This document shows, piece by piece, positions 15,403-24,000 of a stretch of DNA of 24,000 nucleotides. This stretch comes from Sporomusa sp. KB1 (lineage in GTDB: Bacteria; Bacillota; Negativicutes; Sporomusales; Sporomusaceae), in NCBI RefSeq assembly GCF_007830295.1, contig NZ_VLKC01000002.1, forward strand, positions 3,889,546-3,913,545, in the 5' to 3' direction. The position numbers and the translations under genes were made by a program. The notes under the pieces are model-generated. The model searched no databases. It had not been told where the DNA came from and worked only from the letters and a program-made list of their open reading frames with translations. Positions within the stretch are counted from its first letter, which is position 1. Every line of letters begins with the position of its first letter.

Positions 15403-16011
15403 ATGGAGAGAAGTTTACCTTTGTGGAGTAAGCGAATGTTAATAATTCTAGTAGTTTGTTTTATTGCTGGTGGCTGGAGTGTACTTCTTTATCAGCAAAA
15501 ACACGGGGTACCAGTGACACCCAATAGCAGTGATTATGTTAGATTGCATATTTTGGCTAATAGCGATAGCGTACAAGACCAACAGCTTAAACTAAAGGTT
15601 CGCGATGCAGTAATTGCCTATCTAACCCCATATGTCAAAGATGTGACTGATGCCCAAGCAGCTAAAAACATTATAGCTAACCGCCAAGAGGAACTTGTTC
15701 TGGTAGCCAAAAACACGCTAGCCGAAAACGGCGTTGATTATCCTGTAGCTATCCAAATCGGTAGTTTTGAGTTTCCGGTGCGTTCCTACGGCAGCTTAGT
15801 GTTGCCTGCGGGAGAGTATCAGGCTGTTCGCATTCTCCTGGGAGAGGCTGCTGGGCAAAATTGGTGGTGCGTATTATTTCCACCCCTATGTTTTATTGAC
15901 GGTACTAACACGACCTTAGCCCCAGTTACTTCTTCAAAAGAATATACTCAGCAGGAAGATGGCGATAGACCTTTAAAAATTTGCTGGAAGCTGGCTGAGA
16001 TTTTTAATTAA
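15403..16011 (+). CDS. spoIIR: Stage II sporulation protein R (SpoIIR), the forespore signal that activates SpoIIGA
   Basis: Conserved SpoIIR blocks VRLHILANSDSVQDQQLKLKVRDAV and NWWCVLFPPLCF, with an N-terminal signal/TM segment. I prefer the ATG at 15403 (RBS GGGAGG 7 nt upstream) to the ORF-track ATG at 15379. Confidence 0.9.
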   Translation: MERSLPLWSKRMLIILVVCFIAGGWSVLLYQQKHGVPVTPNSSDYVRLHILANSDSVQDQQLKLKVRDAVIAYLTPYVKDVTDAQAAKNIIANRQEELVLVAKNTLAENGVDYPVAIQIGSFEFPVRSYGSLVLPAGEYQAVRILLGEAAGQNWWCVLFPPLCFIDGTNTTLAPVTSSKEYTQQEDGDRPLKICWKLAEIFN

Positions 16012-16151: not shown

Positions 16152-17822
16152 TTATACTTCGACAACGCGCCTGATATTGCTGTGTGCTACAACGCTTTCT
16201 TCTACTGAATAAGTAGGAATTGCAGCACTGGCCATCTGTTGGATGGTAAGGGGAATGTTGGTTTTGGACAAAAACACTAACCGTTTGTCGTAATAGCGAA
16301 TTAGTTTGATCATCTTATAAAAACAGTCATGGCTGAATTTGCAGCGAACATTGGCAAAAATAATATCAGCATGGATGATAAGCGCTTCATCAAAGCCGTT
16401 TGCATCGCCGGAGAGATAAACAAAATTAGGTAGCTGGGTCTTTAACTTGGTTTGCCAATTTTCAGCACCGCCGATAACCAAGGCGTGAATGTTGCTTAAT
16501 GTGCTTAATGCTGCCTCGATATTGTAGTGTTGATTAGATGTTGCTAAATTTATAATATTATTAGAGTTTTCTATGTCTTTACTTTGTCTTCGGTGATTTT
16601 CCGCTTGCGTAAGCTTAGTTTGAAGTAGCTCAGTTTCTTTGCTTAAGGCATTCACCACGAACTTTTGTTTGAGAACCAAGGCGTTAAGCTCTTCTTCTTT
16701 TTGAGCCAGCAAATCGGTTTTGGCTGCCAAATCTGCACTCATCCTGCGAACTTCTATTTCGTAGGCTCGAAGTTGTTTTTTGAGATTATCCATTTCGGCA
16801 GATAGAAAAGGATTGTTTTGTTCAAAATAATATTTCCTCGTTTTTTTATACTCACGTATGAATTCGAGTAAACTTAAGCCGAACATTACAAACTCGGCAC
16901 ATTTTGATTCCAGATCCTCGTGGCTTTGCGTATGATTGGATCGGAATAATTCTGAGGTCATCTTTATAATATAGAGGCGACAAAGTAGCTCAACATCTCG
17001 TTCTTTAATCTTTGTCAAAATTTTTGGTGATGCCAAGGATAATCCTGTTGATGATGACAAATACGCGGTGCAGTGAGCCATTCCTTCCCAGAAATGGTCG
17101 CCGTTCCAGGGTTCAAGATAATTATAAAATACCTTTTGATATATCGCATTTTTAAGTTGACGGGCCATTTTTTTTATTGCTGGTTTATTCAGCCTGTTTT
17201 TTAATTGTTGAAAATCGCTGGTGTTATCAAGCTTGCTGGCAAGTGTTTGCACAACGAATAAAGTCTCAGGTTCTGGTATGATTGCTTTTTTGCCTAAAAC
17301 ACAGGTAATAAACATGGCGAATTTTAGGGAGGCATGAGGCGGTAAATCAATAGCTGGATACATTGCAATGAAATATTGAAGATATTGTATTGCGGCGCCA
17401 GTAAGAAGATTGTGGTATTGAACGTCTTTGTCGGATTCGGCATAATACTCTGGCTGAGCGGCTTTTGATAAATCAATTGTTTCGGCATTTTTAATATAGC
17501 CATACAGATTGCTCCAGCGTTTTGTCAGAATGCGTATTACCTGTTCGAATAAGGGAGAACAAGGGCCATCTTCCATAGCCACAAGCACCATGCCTAAGTA
17601 TTTTAAGGCATAAATTTGTCGATCAATGCCGCTGATAGTGAACAAAGGATGATTAGCATAAGAAGAATGAGAGGCTGCAGTCTGGTAACGAGTTTTATCG
17701 ATTTCATAAAGCAAGTCTATTTCTTTGTATGCTGATGATGTATCGGCAGCGAGCTGGACAAAAAGAGGGAGCGTATCAACCGGGATATTGTTGGCTACTA
17801 ATATGAAATCCGAAATCTTCAT
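16152..17822 (-). CDS. Hypothetical 556-aa protein: novel helical N-terminal region, central coiled coil, DUF2325-like C-terminal domain
   Basis: Long uninterrupted ORF with RBS GGATGGTGA upstream. Residues ~341-412 are heptad-rich (EMDNLKKQLRAYEIEVRR...ELLQTKLTQAENH). Residues ~446-530 (ALVIGGAENW...HADIIFANVRCKFSHDCFYKMIKL...LVFLSKTN) match my memory of the DUF2325 pattern (GG ... aD-hh ... sH ... k). No TM segment or signal peptide. Confidence 0.7.
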   Translation of the reverse strand: MKISDFILVANNIPVDTLPLFVQLAADTSSAYKEIDLLYEIDKTRYQTAASHSSYANHPLFTISGIDRQIYALKYLGMVLVAMEDGPCSPLFEQVIRILTKRWSNLYGYIKNAETIDLSKAAQPEYYAESDKDVQYHNLLTGAAIQYLQYFIAMYPAIDLPPHASLKFAMFITCVLGKKAIIPEPETLFVVQTLASKLDNTSDFQQLKNRLNKPAIKKMARQLKNAIYQKVFYNYLEPWNGDHFWEGMAHCTAYLSSSTGLSLASPKILTKIKERDVELLCRLYIIKMTSELFRSNHTQSHEDLESKCAEFVMFGLSLLEFIREYKKTRKYYFEQNNPFLSAEMDNLKKQLRAYEIEVRRMSADLAAKTDLLAQKEEELNALVLKQKFVVNALSKETELLQTKLTQAENHRRQSKDIENSNNIINLATSNQHYNIEAALSTLSNIHALVIGGAENWQTKLKTQLPNFVYLSGDANGFDEALIIHADIIFANVRCKFSHDCFYKMIKLIRYYDKRLVFLSKTNIPLTIQQMASAAIPTYSVEESVVAHSNIRRVVEV

Positions 17823-17870
17823 GCGGTATCACCATCCTTTTTGTATTAAAAATAAAACGATCTATTCTCT

Positions 17871-18230
17871 TTACACTACTTTTTTGGTAATACATTCGAC
17901 ACTTTCTATTTGGTAAGACGCGGCAATAGTCGTGCTTCGTTCGCCTTTGGCTGTCTGTATTGCCGCTTTGACTGCAAGCAGAGACTCCGTAATATTTTTT
18001 AGGTTGTTTGTTAACGTTACAAGGATATTAACATAGGTATCAAATGTATAGTCGTTCTTAGACAAGGTAGCTTCTTGAATGGCTTTATGGGTATCTACAA
18101 GGAGTTCTTGAAAGGCATGTTCAGAGTATTGTAAGTCAGTTAGTGTATAGCAACCGGGTTCATTGTCGGTTAGTAACATAATCTTCCCATTGGTTAAAAC
18201 ATCACTGTGATCATTGATTCGTGAATACAT
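17871..18230 (-). CDS. Hypothetical 119-aa protein, first gene of the operon with the 556-aa gene
   Basis: ORF with a strong RBS (AGGGAGGAAAAATT-ATG). It lies 48 nt upstream of the 556-aa gene on the same strand. No recognisable motif, TM segment or signal peptide. Confidence 0.6.
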   Translation of the reverse strand: MYSRINDHSDVLTNGKIMLLTDNEPGCYTLTDLQYSEHAFQELLVDTHKAIQEATLSKNDYTFDTYVNILVTLTNNLKNITESLLAVKAAIQTAKGERSTTIAASYQIESVECITKKVV

Positions 18231-18281: not shown

Positions 18282-18326
18282 AAACGAAAATATGCCAAGC
18301 CTATCCAGAACGGAAAGGGCTTGGCA
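18282..18326 (-). terminator. Leader terminator (attenuator) inside the 5' UTR of the 119-aa gene
   Basis: Read on the minus strand, UGCCAAGCC-N16-GGCUUGGCA forms a 9-bp stem followed by AUAUUUUCGUUU. It sits about 60 nt upstream of the ATG at 18230. Confidence 0.7.
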
Positions 18327-18392
18327 ATAAATTCAAGCGAACGTAATAAAAGAACATAAAACAAGTGTAAAACTTTGCACTGCTTGAAATAT

Positions 18393-18487
18393 TGCTCCTT
18401 TCCAAAAGGGAGATATAGCCGTTTTCAGCTATACCGATCGGCCGGATACCATGCCACGAAAGGATTAGGTAAATCGGCTAAGGAGCA
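18393..18487 (-). promoter_or_regulatory. Candidate riboswitch aptamer; class unproven, some resemblance to the Moco/Tuco RNA motif
   Basis: On the minus strand an 8-bp closing helix, UGCUCCUU (18487-18480) / AAGGAGCA (18400-18393), encloses about 80 nt. Internal hairpins are GCCG..UACC / GGUA..CGGC (18478-18441) and UAUAGC-UGAAAACG-GCUAUA (18433-18414). The 3' strand also pairs with the terminator's 5' arm. Confidence 0.5.
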
Positions 18488-18567
18488 GACTATCTGATTA
18501 TGAAACTTTAACAAAGAGGTATTCGATAACGAAAACTAACATAAACAAACATGAATAATTAATTACT

Positions 18568-18596
18568 ATTATATTGTTTGGCGGTGTATAAATCAA
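18568..18596 (-). promoter_or_regulatory. Sigma-A-type promoter for the riboswitch-like leader and the 119/556-aa operon
   Basis: On the minus strand: TTGATT (18596-18591), a 17-nt spacer, then TATAAT (18573-18568). Confidence 0.6.
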
Positions 18597-18699
18597 TATG
18601 GTTAGTATATGTTGGTTAGAAAAATTTTTTGTGAAGTTTAGATTAGAATTGACGTTCTCCTTTTTAAAAAGGGGTTGCATCGATTCGTCAATTAAACTC

Positions 18700-18729
18700 T
18701 TGCCAATATAAACAAACAAATACTATAAT
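18700..18729 (+). promoter_or_regulatory. Sigma-A-type promoter for the WtpA-like gene, with the shared motif in its spacer
   Basis: TTGCCA (18700-18705), an 18-nt spacer, then TATAAT (18724-18729). The spacer begins with AATATAAACAAACA (18705-18718). Confidence 0.55.
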
Positions 18730-18753: not shown

Positions 18754-19743
18754 ATGAATCGTAATTTAATGAAACTAATGGGTCTTTTTCTCTGCGTAGT
18801 ACTCATTGGACTGGGGCAACAAAGCAGTTTTGCCGAGGAGAGCCCAAACCACCCAATTACGGAGGTTATTGTCTTTCATGCTGGCAGTTTAAGCGGACCA
18901 TTCCAGAAAGCGGCCGAAGCTTATGAAAAATCTCATCCAGATATCAAAATCACTTTAGAAGGAAGTGGCAGCCGGGAAGCCGCCCGGAAAGTAACGGAAC
19001 TGAAGAGACCATGTGACGTGGTTGCTTCTGCTGACTATGAAACTATTGATAATTTAATGATGCCTGAATATGCAAAGTTTAATATATTTTTCGCCCGTAA
19101 TAAAACAGTTGTAGCCTTTACCGACAAAAGTAAGTATGCTAATGAGATTACCAGTGATAATTGGTATGATATTTTATCAAGGCCAGATGTGCAGTATGGT
19201 CATACTGATCCGAATTTGGATCCTGGCGGCTACCGGGCAGTTCTGACATTGCAGTTAGCCGAAAAATATTATCATAAACAGGGCTTGTATCAAGCGCTGG
19301 TAAATAATTTTCATGAGTCTAACACTGTCAATGATGGAAAAAGTATCAAAGAAATGCTGAATTCAGGTCGGTTGGATTACTTCTTCTTTTATGAATCGTC
19401 AGCCAAACAAGGCGGCTATCACTATATTACCTTGCCGGTTGAACTCGATTTTTCTTCCTTGGATTATGCGAACTATTACAAGCAAGCAACACTGTCGCTT
19501 AATGGCAAAAAAACAGGCAGCACTGAACAAGTTTACGGACAACCAATAATTTATGGCCTTACTCTGGTGAATAACGCCCCACATTCCAAGGAAGCGCTGC
19601 AATTCATACACTTTCTTCTGACAGATGGACAAAAATATTTAAATGATGCAGGTTTTATTTCTATGAATCCGTTAGTTCGCACCAGGGAATTGCCTTACAT
19701 CCCGGCAGAATTAAAAGATTTAGTAAAGCCGTTCAAACAATAA
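18754..19743 (+). CDS. Periplasmic tungstate/molybdate-binding protein, WtpA/ModA superfamily (orphan; no adjacent permease or ATPase)
   Basis: RBS AAGGGGG. Sec signal peptide (MNRNLMKLMGLFLCVVLIGLGQQSSFA). VFHAGSL...GSGS...VVASADY parallels the ModA blocks VFAAASL...SSG...FISAD. The HTDPNLDPGGYR block resembles the WtpA-type oxyanion-binding motif, recalled from memory. Confidence 0.82.
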   Translation: MNRNLMKLMGLFLCVVLIGLGQQSSFAEESPNHPITEVIVFHAGSLSGPFQKAAEAYEKSHPDIKITLEGSGSREAARKVTELKRPCDVVASADYETIDNLMMPEYAKFNIFFARNKTVVAFTDKSKYANEITSDNWYDILSRPDVQYGHTDPNLDPGGYRAVLTLQLAEKYYHKQGLYQALVNNFHESNTVNDGKSIKEMLNSGRLDYFFFYESSAKQGGYHYITLPVELDFSSLDYANYYKQATLSLNGKKTGSTEQVYGQPIIYGLTLVNNAPHSKEALQFIHFLLTDGQKYLNDAGFISMNPLVRTRELPYIPAELKDLVKPFKQ

Positions 19744-19952: not shown

Positions 19953-20420
19953 TTAGCCGTTACAGGTGCAAGCGTCACCGCAAGTACAACTGTCGCCGCA
20001 TGAACAACCGTCAGTATTTGCAATCATGCTATCATTTTTTGAAATACTTACTCCCGCTGCGGAAAGCTCTTCTTGTTTCTTCAATTTTTTATTGTAGTTG
20101 TTTATCCAGCCAAACACATCGTTCAAAATCGGTATAAAACTTTGTCCGATATCTGTTAATGAGTATTCGACTTTTGGCGGTACTTCTTTGTATATTTCTC
20201 TAAATACTATTCCGTCCCGTTCAAGTTCCCGTAACTGTTGTGTAAGTATTCCTTGTGAAATATCGGGTATTTGTTTTTGAAGTTCACTAAACCTTCTCGT
20301 TCCCTCGCTTAAACGCCAAAGAATTGTGAATTTCCATTTACCTGTGACTAACCTTTGGGCAACTGTTAGTGTTGCATTAGTCACTGGACAAAGACCTCTA
20401 AGGTTTTGTGCTTTGGTCAT
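19953..20420 (-). CDS. HxlR-family (DUF24) winged-helix transcriptional regulator with a C-terminal metallothionein-like Cys-rich tail
   Basis: Core [27 protein letters not shown]...[31 protein letters not shown].....[11 protein letters not shown] is the HxlR signature. An extra ~45 aa ends in [19 protein letters not shown], with six Cys arranged as three CxC pairs. Confidence 0.85.
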
Positions 20421-20517
20421 TTCAAATTGCTTCCTTTCTCAATGGTACTATAAATAGTAGTATGTCATATAAAAGTGCCTACTTGTATTTTTATTTATTA
20501 TATTATACCATTTTAGC

Positions 20518-20571
20518 AAATATAAACAAACATAGACAATAATTATAAGTCGTTTATGTTTGTTTATATTT
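20518..20571. promoter_or_regulatory. Perfect 17-bp inverted repeat; candidate operator in the divergent hxlR-like / HMA promoter region
   Basis: AAATATAAACAAACATA (20518-20534), a 20-nt spacer, then TATGTTTGTTTATATTT (20555-20571), an exact reverse complement. The left arm overlaps the -35 region of a minus-strand TGgTATAAT extended -10 (20510-20502). The right arm overlaps the -35 region of a plus-strand TATAGT (20581-20586). Confidence 0.65.
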
Positions 20572-20611
20572 GTAGATATTTATAGTTTGGCACAGGGAGG
20601 AAGTGAAGCTA

Positions 20612-20821
20612 ATGACTCAAACCAATCAAATTATCCTGAGAATTGAAGGTATGTCATGCAGTATGTGCAAAGGTAAAGTGGAAAAAGCACTTAAAAGTAT
20701 TTCAGGAGTAATAAACGTAAGTGTTGATTTGGAAACAAAGGAAGCCATTATTGGTGGCTTGGCTAATCCTGCAGCGCTTGTTAAAGCTGTTGAAGAAATT
20801 GGATTTAAAGTTAAAAACTAA
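20612..20821 (+). CDS. Heavy-metal-associated (HMA) domain protein, CopZ-like metallochaperone
   Basis: 69 aa with a ferredoxin-like HMA pattern and metal-binding loop GMSCSMC (MxCxxC). No signal peptide. I prefer the ATG at 20612 (RBS AGGGAGG 11 nt upstream) to the GTG at 20603. Confidence 0.85.
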   Translation: MTQTNQIILRIEGMSCSMCKGKVEKALKSISGVINVSVDLETKEAIIGGLANPAALVKAVEEIGFKVKN

Positions 20822-20861
20822 TATGCTTCACCACTTAGCACTATTCAAGAGGAGGGGGAAA

Positions 20862-23138
20862 ATGGCGAAAAACTTAACATGGAAACCATTTTGCAGTGTT
20901 ACACTTGCTATTGCCATGTTTCTATATGGAGCAGGTATTGCCGGGGCGGAAAATGCAGTGTCGCAATCAGACAGCACTCAGGTGTCCGAAGGTGATAAAC
21001 AGCAAAAACAGGATCAGGCAGCTGATAAGCAAGAACAGCACGAAAATAGTGATAGTTCGATTGCGGCGACTTCAACTGCGGCCAATGTTCCATTTACTGA
21101 GGTGGAGATTACTGCGGTGGAGGTTACTGCGGACAAGCAGAATAAACTGGCTATTGGCCAGCAACCCAACGCCGAAGGGATAAATAATTATGTAGTTACG
21201 AAAAGTTCTACCGGCAGTAAATCAGACGTTGCAAATAAGGATTTGCCGCAGTCGATTACGGTGGTCGGCCAAAAAATCATGAAGGAGCAAAATAATAAAA
21301 CAGTCGCCGATGCATTAACTAATGTGGCGGGGGTAACGGTAGCCCAAGCAGTTCCTAATTATTGGTACAACACAAGTTTTAATATCCGAGGTTTTGGTAA
21401 TGGTTTTTTGTCTGACAATGTATTTGTTAATGGGTTATGGGATCCGTGTATTTCAATGTCGGGATGGGTGGGAAATCTTGACCGTATCGAGGTATTAAAA
21501 GGTCCGGCCTCTGTACTGTACGGAAATGGTACGCCTGGAGGTTCAATCAACTATGTAACAAAAAAACCGTTGTCTGAACAGGCATTTACCTTGGGCACGG
21601 AGTTCGGCTCATGGGGATCCAAATCGACTGATATTGATATGTCCATTCCGCTAACTGATGATAAAAAATGGCTGTCCCGGACTATTATTCAGAATGCTGA
21701 TAATCATTCTTTTCAAAAGGACGTTAAATTCAAACGTTTCGACGGCAGCGTAATTGTGCAAGGCCAACCCCGGCAAGATACTGTGTACACTTTTGAAGTA
21801 CAGTTTCATGATCACGATGGTCCAACTGTTGGATTGCTGCCACTTACCGGTACAATAAATTCCCCCTATAATCTAGTTCCTTACGATGGGAATTATTATA
21901 ATCCAAATATAAAATTACATTATATAGGGCGCAGTATTTCGGCACAAATCGATCACCAGTTTAATAGTATTTGGTCCATCCGTTCGGCCTTCCGATATAG
22001 CAATGAAACCACAAATTTCTATTCGCAAGGAGGGTCGACTCTGAATCTCGATAATCTTACAGTCAATCAAGTTTGGCAGCATAGACTGATGCGCACCAGC
22101 GTTTATGCGTGGGATACGGCAGCAAATGCCAAATTTACTGCTTGGGGGCTTAAACACGATTTGACATTTGGTTTTGACTGGGCCCAATTTGATCAAAAAA
22201 TCCCCTATTATTATCGGGGCAATTTACCCAGCGTTTCGTTGTACAATCCTATTTTCACCAGCTCATTACCAACGAGGATTATGAATCCAATGAATAACTA
22301 TCATTCTTGGAGCAATCGATATGGGAGCTACATATCGGACATAATGGAACTTTCGCCCAAATTTAAGGTTGCTACAGGGGCAAGCTTTACCACTTTGGAT
22401 GGTGTCAGCAGCCATGATTCTGGCAAAGATTGGCGGGTCGGGGCGACCTATGAATTAACTCCAGGAGTTACCTTATTTACCGGCTACTCCACATCCTACG
22501 AACCACAAGGCTCTAAGCTTAGTGGTACTAAAACGATTTACTTTGAACCTGAAACCGGTAATCAGATCGAGGGCGGTTTGAAGGTAGATATAAGTAATCG
22601 CGCAAGTGTTACGTTAGCAAATTACCGGATCAATCGTGAAGATATGGTCTACGCTATTCCCGGAACGAACCCGCAAGAATATGAACAAATTGGCAAGCAA
22701 ACCAGCAAAGGGTTCGAACTTGATGCTAGCTACGTACTTCGTCCAGGCTGGAATCTGCTGGTCGCTTATTCTCATTGTGACGCTCGCGTAGTAAAAGACG
22801 CTACCTATAGTTCAGGCAGCGTGCTTCCCAATGTGCCGCTTAACTCCTTTAAACTTTGGAGTACATACGAATTTCAAGAAGGGCCTTGTAAAGGGCTGGG
22901 TTTTGGCGGCGGTTTGACTCGTGTCGGCAGCCGCGCAGTCGATTATGATAATAGCTTAGGTTGGATGGATGGCTATACTACGATTGACGCCGAAATACAT
23001 TACAAAATCAAAGATTGGCGTTACTCCCTCAACCTATATAATTTGACTAATGAGAAGTATTGGGCGTTAGGCAGTTCTAGTGGTGTTTACGCGGGAACAC
23101 CTAGAAGTTATACTTTGCGCGTAGAAAAGTCATTTTAA
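20862..23138 (+). CDS. TonB-dependent outer-membrane receptor (siderophore/metallophore-receptor type)
   Basis: RBS GAGGAGGGGG then ATG at 20862. Signal peptide (...AIAMFLYGAGIAGA-ENA). Plug-domain motifs TKSSTGSKSDVANKDLPQSITVV, NVAGVTV, IRGF, IEVLKGPASVLYG and PGGSINYVTKKP. A beta-barrel-like repeat region follows, with the terminal aromatic ...YTLRVEKSF. The ORF-track start at 20721 overlaps the HMA gene and lacks an RBS. Confidence 0.9.
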   Translation: MAKNLTWKPFCSVTLAIAMFLYGAGIAGAENAVSQSDSTQVSEGDKQQKQDQAADKQEQHENSDSSIAATSTAANVPFTEVEITAVEVTADKQNKLAIGQQPNAEGINNYVVTKSSTGSKSDVANKDLPQSITVVGQKIMKEQNNKTVADALTNVAGVTVAQAVPNYWYNTSFNIRGFGNGFLSDNVFVNGLWDPCISMSGWVGNLDRIEVLKGPASVLYGNGTPGGSINYVTKKPLSEQAFTLGTEFGSWGSKSTDIDMSIPLTDDKKWLSRTIIQNADNHSFQKDVKFKRFDGSVIVQGQPRQDTVYTFEVQFHDHDGPTVGLLPLTGTINSPYNLVPYDGNYYNPNIKLHYIGRSISAQIDHQFNSIWSIRSAFRYSNETTNFYSQGGSTLNLDNLTVNQVWQHRLMRTSVYAWDTAANAKFTAWGLKHDLTFGFDWAQFDQKIPYYYRGNLPSVSLYNPIFTSSLPTRIMNPMNNYHSWSNRYGSYISDIMELSPKFKVATGASFTTLDGVSSHDSGKDWRVGATYELTPGVTLFTGYSTSYEPQGSKLSGTKTIYFEPETGNQIEGGLKVDISNRASVTLANYRINREDMVYAIPGTNPQEYEQIGKQTSKGFELDASYVLRPGWNLLVAYSHCDARVVKDATYSSGSVLPNVPLNSFKLWSTYEFQEGPCKGLGFGGGLTRVGSRAVDYDNSLGWMDGYTTIDAEIHYKIKDWRYSLNLYNLTNEKYWALGSSSGVYAGTPRSYTLRVEKSF
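21102..21131 (+). repeat. Tandem 15-bp duplication inside the receptor gene, encoding VEITA-VEVTA
   Basis: GTGGAGATTACTGCG (21102-21116) is followed directly by GTGGAGGTTACTGCG (21117-21131), with one mismatch. Confidence 0.8.
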
Positions 23139-23178
23139 AATGTATGATAGTTAACTATTTCGAAGGAGCAACTTAAAA

Positions 23179-24000
23179 GTGACCGCTCAATCAAAAACAT
23201 TTTATCAAGAATTGTGGCACATCGTCCGTCCCTTTTGGCGGTCGAGGGAAGGCAGGATAGCAGCGGCAATGCTGTTAGGAGTGCTAATCCTGATTATTTT
23301 TCGTCTCTATGTAAGTGTTCTGATAAATGAATGGCAAAAACTTTTCTTTAATGCCATTCATTTATTGAATGCCGCTGAGTGTATCCACCAGCTTTTCCGA
23401 TTTGCGGGCTTGTCGCTGCTGTTTTTGCCGTTGCTTGGCTGTCAGAAATATTTACGGGGGCTTGTGCAAATTCGCTGGCGGCAATGGTTATCGGAACGCT
23501 ATGCTGAGAAACTGCTGAAAAACCGGAATTATTACCGTTTACAGTATGCATCAGGCGATACTGATAATCTTGATCAGCGTATTGCTGAGGATTTGCGGAT
23601 TTTTCCCGTGGAGACCATCAACATGATTTTTGGTTTTATTGATGCGATGGGATCACTTGCGGCATTTTCTGTTATATTGTGGAATTCGCCGGGATCACCG
23701 GAGGTAGCCGGCCTGGAAATTACTGGCTTTCTATTTTGGCTGGCTTTATTCTTTTCGTTAGCCGGTACATGGGTCAATCACCTTATGGGGAAAATTCTCA
23801 GTGTTTTTAACCGGGAACAACAGAAATATGAAGCTAATTATCGGTTTTCCCTAGTCCGGCTCCGAGAAAATGCTGAGGCTATTGCCGCATACGGTGGCGA
23901 ATGCCGGGAAATGGAAGCCCTCGCTGATCGGTTTGGTAGTATCGCCGGGGTATGGCAGAATATTTTGCGCCGGAATAGGATACTGGACTGGTTTTTCAGT
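23179..24000 (+). CDS. YddA-like ABC transporter (ABC_membrane_2 / SbmA-BacA-type TMD fused to an ATPase), 3'-truncated by the window edge
   Basis: Not in the ORF track, because it starts at a GTG and has no stop within the window. GTG at 23179 has RBS GAAGGAG 10 nt upstream, and the frame stays open for 274 codons to base 24000. Blocks LINEWQKLFFNAI, IRWRQWLSERY, NYYRLQY and DNLDQRIAEDLRIF match E. coli YddA (WLNDWNNDFFNAL, IRWREWLTDYY, NYYFTQIY, DNPDQRIAEDILL), recalled from memory. Confidence 0.82.
   Translation, partial: MTAQSKTFYQELWHIVRPFWRSREGRIAAAMLLGVLILIIFRLYVSVLINEWQKLFFNAIHLLNAAECIHQLFRFAGLSLLFLPLLGCQKYLRGLVQIRWRQWLSERYAEKLLKNRNYYRLQYASGDTDNLDQRIAEDLRIFPVETINMIFGFIDAMGSLAAFSVILWNSPGSPEVAGLEITGFLFWLALFFSLAGTWVNHLMGKILSVFNREQQKYEANYRFSLVRLRENAEAIAAYGGECREMEALADRFGSIAGVWQNILRRNRILDWFFS

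What the first reader, a model, noticed from the sequence alone, without database searches (positions are those of the whole stretch)
18541..18718. The operator core ATAAACAAACA recurs at both promoters of the 18.5-kb divergent region, implying a shared regulon
The exact 12-mer ATAAACAAACAT from the 20.5-kb inverted repeat recurs at 18541-18552, just downstream of the minus-strand -10 and so in the first ~20 nt of the riboswitch-like leader. A 14-mer, AATATAAACAAACA, recurs at 18705-18718, filling the spacer between the -35 and -10 of the WtpA-like gene promoter. An exact 12-14-mer is not expected by chance in 24 kb, since 4^12 is about 1.7e7. I noted all four full-length copies in regulatory DNA. 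The only related sequence in coding DNA is a partial 8-mer, GTTTGTTT, inside spoIIR (~15456), which I regard as chance. This links four transcription units: the 119/556-aa operon, the WtpA-like gene, the hxlR-like gene and the HMA-TonB receptor-YddA operon. They may form one co-regulated module.
Basis: seen in the sequence. Interest (0 to 1): 0.68.

Follow-up and report, generated by a model that had tools for sequence, protein, structure and literature searches.

The report
Shared operator of a tungsten-uptake regulon
A short DNA box (ATAAACAAACA) overlaps four neighbouring promoters in a Sporomusa-like bacterium and recurs at matching tungsten/molybdenum genes in related species, so it is very likely a real shared regulator-binding site, though probably not for the HxlR-like regulator encoded next to it.

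Summary
ATAAACAAACA occurs four times in the window, against 0.06 expected, always in promoter DNA, and the copies are alike over 21-28 nt. The "riboswitch-like leader" is a Moco/Tuco riboswitch that lacks stem P3, which marks the tungsten-cofactor type. The "WtpA-like" gene passes the WtpA model. Comparative data support co-regulation. The 20.5-kb palindrome is conserved in four orthologous hxlR/HMA-TonB-receptor-YddA loci. Related boxes lie upstream of the non-syntenic WtpA gene of S. acidovorans. They also lie at the promoter of the riboswitch-556-aa gene in S. termitida, S. malonica and a metagenomic relative. In about 200 kb of Sporomusaceae DNA, every strong match is in such intergenic regions. 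The boxes are arrays of a 10-bp unit (CAAACATAAA), usually as two inverted arms about 34-36 bp apart, and they overlap -35, spacer or +10 positions, which suggests a repressor. The regulator is probably not HxlR. All hxlR leaders carry a second conserved element (AGTAC...ATACT-N9-AGTAC) that resembles known HxlR/HypR operators. The S. termitida ortholog keeps this element but has no AAACAAACA palindrome. The binding protein remains unidentified. This is a new, plausible tungsten/molybdenum regulon motif of ordinary kind and moderate interest.

The parts
18533..18560 (-). Box 1. ATAAACAAACAT lies at 18541-18552. On the minus strand it reads ATGTTTGTTTAT at about +10 to +21 of the riboswitch promoter. 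A weak partner (CCAAACAA, 18574-18581) lies in the promoter spacer.
   Evidence: Exact match. PWM score 30.9 bits. The TGTTTGTTTA-TGTT block is conserved upstream of the riboswitch in 4 species (A4).
18700..18727 (+). Box 2. AATATAAACAAACA (18705-18718) fills the 18-nt spacer of the WtpA promoter, TTGCCA(18700-18705)/TATAAT(18724-18729).
   Evidence: 28 nt, 86% identical to the left arm at 20516-20543. The S. acidovorans WtpA ortholog has AAATATAAACAAAA twice, plus an inverted copy, at the corresponding place.
20517..20537 (+). Box 3, the left arm of the hxlR/HMA palindrome. It overlaps the -35 of the hxlR promoter (-10 TATAAT at 20502-20497).
   Evidence: I2: 21-nt arms, 95% complementary. 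Conserved in L002, L003, L006 and more weakly L009 (A1).
20552..20572 (-). Box 4, the right arm of the palindrome. It overlaps the likely -35 region of the HMA-TonB receptor-YddA operon promoter.
   Evidence: The promoter assignment is weak: TAGACA-16-TATGTT scores 9/12, or a TATAGT at 20581-20586 read from the sequence.
18379..18497 (-). Moco/Tuco riboswitch aptamer (RF01055) lacking stem P3.
   Evidence: 52.6 bits against gathering 36. The alignment shows the P3 hairpin deleted. P3-less aptamers are assigned to the tungsten cofactor in PMC11725836.
18282..18325 (-). Terminator-like hairpin plus U-run between the aptamer and the 119-aa ORF. It is the riboswitch expression platform.
   Evidence: Predicted fold of the leader, together with the sequence reading GCCAAGCC...GGCUUGGC followed by AUAUUUUCGUUU.
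16152..18230 (-). Operon of a 119-aa ORF (17871-18230) and a 556-aa ORF (16152-17822), both of unknown function.
   Evidence: No Pfam or NCBIfam hit. The 556-aa family has 33 members, all from Sporomusaceae or relatives. It lies behind RF01055 in L013, L014 and L137 as well.
18754..19743 (+). Orphan WtpA-type tungstate/molybdate-binding protein.
   Evidence: TIGR03730 scores 306.9 bits against a cutoff of 242.75. NF003196 scores 330 against a cutoff of 355, so it does not pass.
19953..20420 (-). HxlR-family regulator (155 aa) with a C-terminal Cys-rich tail, [15 protein letters not shown].
   Evidence: PF01638, E=4.8e-32. The tail is conserved in 7 orthologs (A2).
20444..20486 (-). Conserved hxlR leader element ACAAGTAgGCACTTTTATATGACATACT-N9-AGTAC. 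This is the probable HxlR box.
   Evidence: Conserved in all six hxlR loci, including the S. termitida locus that has no palindrome. TACT-N9-AGTA occurs only once in the window. Half-sites resemble B. subtilis HxlR DNA CAGTATCC..GGATACTG and the HypR box found at +24..+39 of its own promoter.
20612..24000 (+). Operon of an HMA/CopZ-like protein (20612-20821), a TonB-dependent receptor (20862-23138) and a YddA/SbmA-like ABC transporter (from about 23179, running off the window).
   Evidence: The same gene order is conserved with hxlR in L002, L003, L006, L009 and L016.

Best explanation
The ATAAACAAACA(T) boxes are operator sites of a transcription factor that coordinates tungsten/molybdenum acquisition in Sporomusaceae. 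Each site is a short array of a 10-bp unit (consensus CAAACATAAA). The arrays are often arranged as two inverted arms about 34-36 bp apart, or about one helical turn more. In the window the boxes overlap core promoter elements of four units. These are the -35 regions of the divergent hxlR and HMA-TonB receptor-YddA promoters, the -35/-10 spacer of the wtpA promoter, and +10..+21 of the promoter that drives the Tuco-riboswitch leader of the 119/556-aa operon. Binding there would block RNA polymerase. The inferred mechanism is therefore repression when the metal is sufficient, with the riboswitch adding a second, cofactor-level check on one operon. What is shown: the boxes exist, are non-random, overlap predicted promoters, and are conserved at orthologous and non-syntenic promoters in related species. 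What is inferred: protein binding, repression, and the tungsten/molybdenum signal. The regulator is not identified. The adjacent Cys-tailed HxlR is more likely a target of this regulon with its own separate operator in its leader.
For: Four exact copies occur against 0.06 expected, with extended 21-28 nt similarity. The palindrome is conserved in the hxlR/HMA intergenic regions of S. acidovorans L002 and the MAG loci L003, L006 and L009 (A1). The 10-bp units repeat exactly, for example CAAACATAAG three times in L003. Related boxes lie upstream of the non-syntenic WtpA ortholog of S. acidovorans. They also lie at the promoter of the riboswitch-556-aa gene in S. termitida L014, S. malonica L013 and L137, and between the TonB-ExbBD-cobW-ABC-DUF364-receptor operon and a TOBE gene in S. 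malonica. Across 197 kb of Sporomusaceae loci the 12-mer with up to 1 mismatch gives 14 hits against about 2.9 expected, and each lies in one of these intergenic regions by position. PWM hits of 14 bits or more occur only there, including sites not used for training (L013 27.6 bits, L137 16.9 bits). Links to tungsten/molybdenum: WtpA passes TIGR03730, the RF01055 aptamer lacks P3, and the orthologous clusters contain ModD-like QRPTase, FmdE, TOBE and SBP_bac_11 genes. Evidence against HxlR as the binder: the recognition helix and wing are nearly identical to B. subtilis HxlR, whose crystal DNA is CAGTATCCTCGAGGATACTG. A matching AGTAC/ATACT element is conserved in every hxlR leader. The S. termitida hxlR-HMA locus lacks the AAACAAACA palindrome.
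Against: There is no experimental or genome-wide evidence. The loci examined were chosen because they carry related genes, which biases the enrichment test, and the PWM was trained on most of the sites it recovers. Arm spacing and orientation vary: about 34-36 bp in five sites, 44-48 bp in two, and a single arm at the window's wtpA. No candidate regulator gene was found. The promoters are consensus predictions only. L012, a 69%-identical WtpA homolog next to a TunR-like gene, has no box, so the motif is lineage-restricted.
Confidence: 0.7

Rival explanations
1. The neighbouring Cys-tailed HxlR-family protein itself binds the AAACAAACA arrays. It would then be the metal-sensing master regulator of all four units.
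For: It is the only regulator gene conserved next to the palindrome. All five loci with a Cys-tailed ortholog have the palindrome, and the tail-less S. termitida ortholog's locus lacks it. S. acidovorans has both the tailed HxlR and boxes at its distant wtpA. The palindrome overlaps the hxlR promoter, as expected for autoregulation.
Against: Known HxlR/DUF24 operators are compact 16-20-bp palindromes with GTAT/ATAC-type half-sites. Here the arms are non-palindromic 21-mers about 35 bp apart. The protein's recognition helix and wing match B. subtilis HxlR closely, and a fitting AGTAC/ATACT element already exists in every hxlR leader. The tail-less S. termitida ortholog P0018 has an identical recognition helix, and the search returned no Cys-tailed ortholog attributed to S. 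termitida (best 120 hits only). Yet S. termitida carries the motif at cobW/riboswitch-557. S. malonica has the boxes at two promoters with no hxlR nearby.
Confidence: 0.2
2. The boxes are not a dedicated operator. They are A/T-rich promoter-context sequence, such as -35-like TTGTTT hexamers, curved DNA or UP-like elements, or a chance low-complexity recurrence.
For: The motif is A-rich and low in complexity. TTGTTT can serve as a weak -35. Similar strings are common in unrelated genomes, as hairpin stems and minisatellites. With 2 mismatches the 11-mer gives 30 hits in the window against 16 expected.
Against: Exact 11-14-mers occur four times against 0.06 expected. The C positions are conserved and the 10-bp register is kept across species. 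The boxes occupy different promoter positions and both orientations (spacer, +10, -35), which does not fit a single core-promoter role. Other promoters in the window carry none.
Confidence: 0.06
3. The similarity reflects recent duplication of a promoter cassette, or a mobile-element remnant within this island, rather than selection for a shared regulator.
For: All four copies lie within 2.1 kb. The cluster has different neighbours in different genomes, and a serine recombinase lies just beyond it.
Against: Similarity is confined to 21-28 nt with unrelated flanks. The same motif occurs at non-syntenic wtpA and riboswitch promoters in species whose proteins are only 57-80% identical.
Confidence: 0.04

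Closest known systems
ModE/Mo-box control combined with the Moco riboswitch (E. coli moaABCDE, modABC)
   Same: A metal-responsive DNA operator at promoters of Mo/W uptake and cofactor genes is layered with an RF01055 riboswitch on one operon. The operator is a dyad that overlaps the promoter.
   Different: The sequence is unrelated to the ModE box as I recall it (TATATA-N6-TATATA type); that pattern has 0 matches in the window. No ModE gene was seen. The arms are arrays of 10-bp units about 35 bp apart. The riboswitch is the P3-less (Tuco) type. The organism is a diderm Firmicute, and a TonB-dependent receptor belongs to the regulon.
HxlR/DUF24 (MarR-type) regulators: B. subtilis HxlR, HypR, YodB; S. 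aureus QsrR
   Same: The adjacent regulator is a clear family member (PF01638; 7bze E=2.6e-28). It has the conserved N-terminal Cys (C11). A family-like AGTAC/ATACT element lies downstream of its own promoter, as the HypR box does at +24..+39.
   Different: The AAACAAACA arrays do not look like family operators. The protein also carries a CxCGDxCxCGDxCxC tail that the solved homologs' alignments do not cover, and it is linked to a metal-import operon rather than to electrophile detoxification.
Tuco-riboswitch regulon of Eubacterium limosum (PMC11725836)
   Same: P3-less RF01055 elements control tungsten-related transport genes, with protein regulators layered on top.
   Different: There the extra regulators are Rex, CcpA and LctR, each with its own known motif. 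Here the motif is new, and the riboswitch controls an uncharacterised 119/556-aa pair.
E. coli YddA-YddB-PqqL TonB-dependent import system (recalled from memory: Fur-regulated)
   Same: A TonB-dependent receptor is encoded next to a YddA/SbmA-like fused ABC transporter.
   Different: There is no PqqL protease. The companions are HMA, FmdE/TrmO, DUF364 or ModD proteins. No Fur-like box is evident by eye (no Fur-box scan was run). The context points to tungsten/molybdenum rather than iron.

Membership tests
HxlR/DUF24-type operator (for the AAACAAACA boxes) | A compact palindrome of about 16-20 bp contacted by one winged-helix dimer, with GTAT/ATAC-like half-sites. | tested here: not met
   The arms are 21 nt, not self-complementary, and 14 nt apart, giving about 35 bp centre to centre. 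Spacing in other loci is 33-48 bp. Reference operators are GTATCAAAATTGATAC and CAGTATCCTCGAGGATACTG.
HxlR/DUF24-type operator (for the hxlR leader element 20444-20486) | Family-like half-sites in dyad arrangement near the regulator's own promoter, co-occurring with the regulator gene. | tested here: met
   ATACT-N9-AGTAC, plus an upstream AAGTAC, is conserved in 6 of 6 hxlR loci, with AATAC replacing AGTAC in two. It occurs once in the window. Actual binding was not tested.
Moco/Tuco riboswitch (Rfam RF01055) | Covariance-model score above the gathering threshold over the full model. | tested here: met
   52.6 bits against 36, model positions 1-135, E=3.6e-10. Orthologous hits score 51.9, 46.9 and 52.4 bits.
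Tuco (tungsten-cofactor) subclass of RF01055 | Absence of stem P3. | tested here: met
   The P3 hairpin columns are deleted in the alignment. The criterion is stated in PMC11725836. Ligand specificity itself cannot be tested here.
WtpA tungstate/molybdate-binding protein | Score above the curated cutoff of the equivalog model. | tested here: met
   TIGR03730 scores 306.9 against 242.75. The second model, NF003196, scores 330.3 against a cutoff of 355 and does not pass. No cognate permease or ATPase lies adjacent.
ModE Mo-box | TATATA-N(about 6)-TATATA dyad (consensus recalled from memory). | tested here: not met
   The pattern TATATA-N4-9-TATATA has 0 matches in the window.
OmpR/PhoB-type response-regulator boxes | Direct repeats with a 10-11 bp period at or replacing the -35, plus a cognate response regulator. 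| tested here: inconclusive
   The 10-bp direct-repeat units are present, and the arms overlap the -35 at hxlR/HMA. However, other sites lie in the spacer or at +10, and no response-regulator gene was found in any locus.

The most novel reading that the evidence does not exclude
Sporomusaceae, which are Firmicutes with an outer membrane, may possess an undescribed tungsten/molybdenum regulon. It would be governed by an unknown regulator that reads arrays of a 10-bp CAAACATAAA unit. The regulon would tie together four things: a TonB-dependent receptor/YddA-type importer with HMA, FmdE, ModD and DUF364 accessory proteins; an orphan WtpA; a metallothionein-tailed HxlR regulator, which would be a first metal-linked member of that electrophile-sensing family; and a lineage-specific 556-aa protein under Tuco-riboswitch control. 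This would imply energised outer-membrane uptake of tungsten or molybdenum, or of a metallophore or thiometallate.
Probability: 0.35. Interest if true: 0.65.

Novelty: new member of a known kind. Interest (0 to 1): 0.45.

Why it matters
Sporomusa species are acetogens whose formate dehydrogenases and aldehyde oxidoreductases depend on tungsten or molybdenum. How bacteria with an outer membrane sense and import these oxyanions beyond the inner-membrane ABC systems is poorly known. A defined operator motif gives a handle to map the regulon, to fish out the regulator, and to assign a role to several uncharacterised genes. These include the 556-aa riboswitch-controlled family, the Cys-tailed HxlR, and the HMA-TonB receptor-YddA system. 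The kind of feature, a shared transcription-factor box at neighbouring promoters, is itself ordinary.

Tried and rejected
1. I scanned genome contigs for TAAACAAAC-N25-27-GTTTGTTTA. It therefore said nothing about the regulon.

2. I scanned metagenome contigs for CAAAYATAAACAAACATAR.

3. I looked for a candidate regulator gene near the boxes in 13 related loci. Only HxlR recurs. The sigma-54 activators near L010 and L137 appear to belong to neighbouring operons, and the promoters here look sigma-70-like.

4. I predicted the structure of the 556-aa protein with AlphaFold2 (pLDDT 74.8) and searched it with Foldseek against the PDB. The best E-value was 0.36, and only the small C-terminal alpha/beta domain weakly resembles Rossmann or receiver folds. 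This gave no functional clue.

5. A Pfam search of the Cys-rich tail alone found nothing.

6. A literature search for the TunR motif found nothing relevant in the library.

7. I compared the motif from memory with Fur, Zur, PerR, Rex, CopY, CsoR, ArsR, NikR, PhoP and CodY boxes. None resembles it. Of the known boxes only the ModE-like pattern was scanned for, and it gave no match.

Full report
**Observation.** The 11-mer ATAAACAAACA occurs exactly four times in the 24-kb window: 18541+, 18708+, 20522+ and 20557-. Dinucleotide shuffles give 0.06 expected, and none of 100 shuffles reached four. The only other AAACAAAC 8-mer lies in spoIIR at 15454-15461. The copies share more than the core. There are 28 nt at 86% identity between 18702-18729 and 20516-20543, and 22 nt at 82% between 18538-18559 and 20519-20540. 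The 20.5-kb palindrome has 21-nt arms that are 95% complementary and 14 nt apart.

**Context.** The window comes from a sporulating bacterium with an outer membrane. It carries ftsA/ftsZ, spoIIGA, sigE, sigG and spoIIR, plus a TonB-dependent receptor. The closest named relatives are Sporomusa species.
- The minus-strand leader is a full-length Moco/Tuco riboswitch (RF01055, 18379-18497, 52.6 bits against gathering 36). Its P3 hairpin is deleted, which the literature uses as the signature of the tungsten-cofactor class (PMC11725836).
- A terminator-like hairpin with a U-run (about 18282-18325) follows the aptamer.
- The riboswitch precedes a 119-aa ORF and a 556-aa ORF that match no Pfam or NCBIfam family.
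- The plus-strand gene at 18754-19743 passes the WtpA equivalog TIGR03730 (306.9 against 242.75) and has no adjacent permease or ATPase.
- The gene at 19953-20420(-) is an HxlR-family regulator.
- Divergent from it is an operon of an HMA/CopZ-like protein (20612-20821), a TonB-dependent receptor (20862-23138) and a YddA/SbmA-like ABC transporter (from about 23179).

**Positions relative to promoters (consensus predictions).**
- At wtpA the box fills the spacer of TTGCCA-18-TATAAT, which at 11/12 is the best match in the region.
- At the riboswitch promoter (TTGATT-17-TATAAT, minus strand) the box lies about 15 nt downstream of the -10. A weak partner, CCAAACAA, lies in the spacer.
- At the hxlR/HMA region the two arms overlap the -35 regions of the back-to-back promoters. 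The hxlR -10 is a TATAAT at 20502-20497. The HMA promoter is poorly defined.

**Comparative evidence, hxlR/HMA palindrome.** Orthologs of the HxlR protein (69-91% identity) are always divergent from an operon of HMA, TonB receptor and YddA, often followed by FmdE/TrmO, DUF364 or ModD, and TonB-ExbB-ExbD. This holds in S. acidovorans (L002) and three metagenomic lineages (L003, L006, L009). The aligned intergenic regions conserve the palindrome (A1). It resolves into arrays of a 10-bp unit, for example ACAAACATAA twice in L002 and CAAACATAAG three times in L003.

**Comparative evidence, wtpA.** The WtpA ortholog of S. acidovorans (80% identity) lies elsewhere in its genome, next to corA. Even so, it has AAATATAAACAAAA twice plus an inverted copy at the place corresponding to the window's promoter.

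**Comparative evidence, the riboswitch operon.** The 556-aa protein belongs to a family of 33 sequences found only in Sporomusaceae and relatives.
- In S. malonica (L013), S. termitida (L014) and L137 it again follows an RF01055 riboswitch.
- In those loci it sits among TOBE, cobW, ABC, SBP and TonB-ExbBD-receptor genes.
- Upstream of each riboswitch there is an AAACAAA-type dyad. In L014 it is ATAAACAAAC...ATGTTTGTTTAT plus a further copy. In L137 it is ACAAAAACAAATAA-TATAAT...-TTATTTGTTTTTGT, flanking the -10. In L013 it is CAAACAAAAC...TTTTTGTTG.
- The block TGTTTGTTTA-TGTT is invariant in the four-species alignment (A4).
- S. malonica has a further perfect dyad (ACAAAAACAAAC/GTTTGTTTTTGT) between its TonB-ExbBD-cobW-ABC-DUF364-receptor operon and a TOBE gene.

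**Specificity.** In 197 kb of non-redundant Sporomusaceae loci, the 12-mer with up to one mismatch occurs 14 times against about 2.9 expected. By position, all 14 lie in these intergenic regions. A 28-nt PWM gives hits of 14 bits or more only there, including sites that were not in the training set (L013 27.6 bits, L137 16.9 bits), and gives no extra site in the window. There are caveats. The loci were selected through related genes, and most sites were used for training. Both attempts at collection-wide scans also failed.

**Architecture.** Start-to-start distance between inverted 12-mers is 33-36 bp in the window, L002, L003, L014 and L137, and 44-48 bp in L006 and L013, roughly one 10-bp unit more. 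The window's wtpA site has one arm only. Because the sites overlap the -35, the spacer or +10, repression by promoter occlusion is the most economical mechanism. This is inference.

Three results argue against that.
- The regulator's recognition helix and wing are nearly identical to B. subtilis HxlR. That protein was crystallised on CAGTATCCTCGAGGATACTG (PMC7835342). HypR binds GTATCAAAATTGATAC, which is also found at +24..+39 of its own promoter (PMC3351151). MarR-type proteins generally bind 16-20-bp pseudo-palindromes.
- Every hxlR leader carries a second conserved element, ACAAGTAC-N16-ATACT-N9-A(G/A)TAC. TACT-N9-AGTA occurs once in the window, at 20446-20462.
- The S. termitida ortholog P0018 has an identical recognition helix but no Cys tail. 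It sits in the same HMA-receptor-TonB-ExbBD-YddA context and keeps that leader element, but its intergenic region has no AAACAAACA palindrome. S. termitida nevertheless carries the motif at its cobW/riboswitch-557 region.

The simplest reading is that the AGTAC/ATACT element is the HxlR box. The AAACAAACA arrays would then belong to another, still unidentified, trans-acting regulator, and hxlR would be one of its targets. This is not proven. All five loci with a Cys-tailed HxlR have the palindrome, and no alternative regulator gene was found.

**Comparison with known systems.** The logic resembles ModE plus the Moco riboswitch in E. coli, and the layered protein and Tuco-riboswitch control in E. 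limosum. The sequence is unrelated to the ModE-type TATATA dyad, which has 0 matches in the window. From memory it also resembles none of the Fur, Zur, PerR, Rex, CopY, CsoR, ArsR, NikR, PhoP or CodY boxes. I found no description of this motif or of a Sporomusa tungsten/molybdenum regulon in the searchable literature.

**Verdict.** The shared-regulon interpretation is supported by phylogenetic footprinting. The regulator assignment is doubtful, and the metal is most likely tungsten or molybdenum. The feature is a new instance of a familiar kind, a transcription-factor operator that defines a small metal-homeostasis regulon. The interesting components around it, namely the Cys-tailed HxlR, the TonB-dependent import system and the riboswitch-controlled orphan protein, deserve follow-up.

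Noticed in passing
window 16152-18230 (-); L013 7001-8674; L014 7001-8674; L137 7605-9683: The 556-aa protein, preceded in some genomes by a 119-125-aa ORF, belongs to a family seen only in Sporomusaceae and relatives (33 sequences). It lies behind an RF01055 riboswitch in all four species examined; the window's aptamer lacks P3. It has no Pfam or NCBIfam match. The AlphaFold2 model (pLDDT 74.8) shows an all-alpha N-terminal region, a long coiled coil and a small C-terminal alpha/beta domain, with no PDB fold match (best E=0.36).
   Followed up: partly
window 19953-20075 (-), C-terminal 40 residues of HxlR: The HxlR-family regulator has a C-terminal Cys-rich tail, [17 protein letters not shown] (CxCGDxCxCGDxCxC). 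The tail is conserved in seven orthologs down to 55% identity and is absent from the S. termitida ortholog. It is not covered by the alignments to solved HxlR, HypR and YodB structures and has no Pfam hit. It suggests thiophilic metal or thiometallate binding.
   Followed up: partly
window 20444-20486 (-): The hxlR 5' leader has a highly conserved element, ACAAGTAgGCACTTTTATATGACATACTactatttatAGTACC. It is present in all six hxlR loci, including the one without the AAACAAACA palindrome, and is the probable HxlR autoregulatory box.
   Followed up: yes
L003 947-1060 (-): An RF01055 (Moco) riboswitch hit (42.1 bits against gathering 36) lies directly upstream of a trigger factor (tig) gene, followed by a U-run and an RBS. 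This is an unexpected target for this riboswitch class.
   Followed up: no
L001 1475-5462 (beyond the window's right end): Downstream of the YddA-like gene the source contig carries a DUF364 (putative heavy-metal chelation) gene, an MntP gene and a 493-aa serine recombinase. The hxlR-HMA-receptor cluster has different neighbours in every genome, so it may be a movable island.
   Followed up: no
L016 7790-7850 and 9441-14225: In S. termitida the HMA leader contains a long near-perfect GC-containing hairpin (AGCAAAAGAGCTAAAGGCTAAGTT...AACTTAGCCTTTAGCTCTTTGCT) in place of the AAACAAACA palindrome. A 1594-aa protein with TonB-receptor domains lies nearby.
   Followed up: no
L002 3700-5408; L003 3855-5421; L012 7171-9790: Orthologous clusters add a ModD-like QRPTase, a TrmO_N+FmdE fusion protein and DUF364 between the YddA-like gene and tonB-exbBD. 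In L012 a modD-wtpA-SBP operon sits next to a TunR-like (HTH_17+PBP_like) regulator and tupABC-like genes. This reinforces the tungsten/molybdenum assignment.
   Followed up: partly
L015 6119-6203 (-): A ZMP/ZTP riboswitch (57.6 bits) lies upstream of formate-tetrahydrofolate ligase. This is a known association, noted only for completeness.
   Followed up: no
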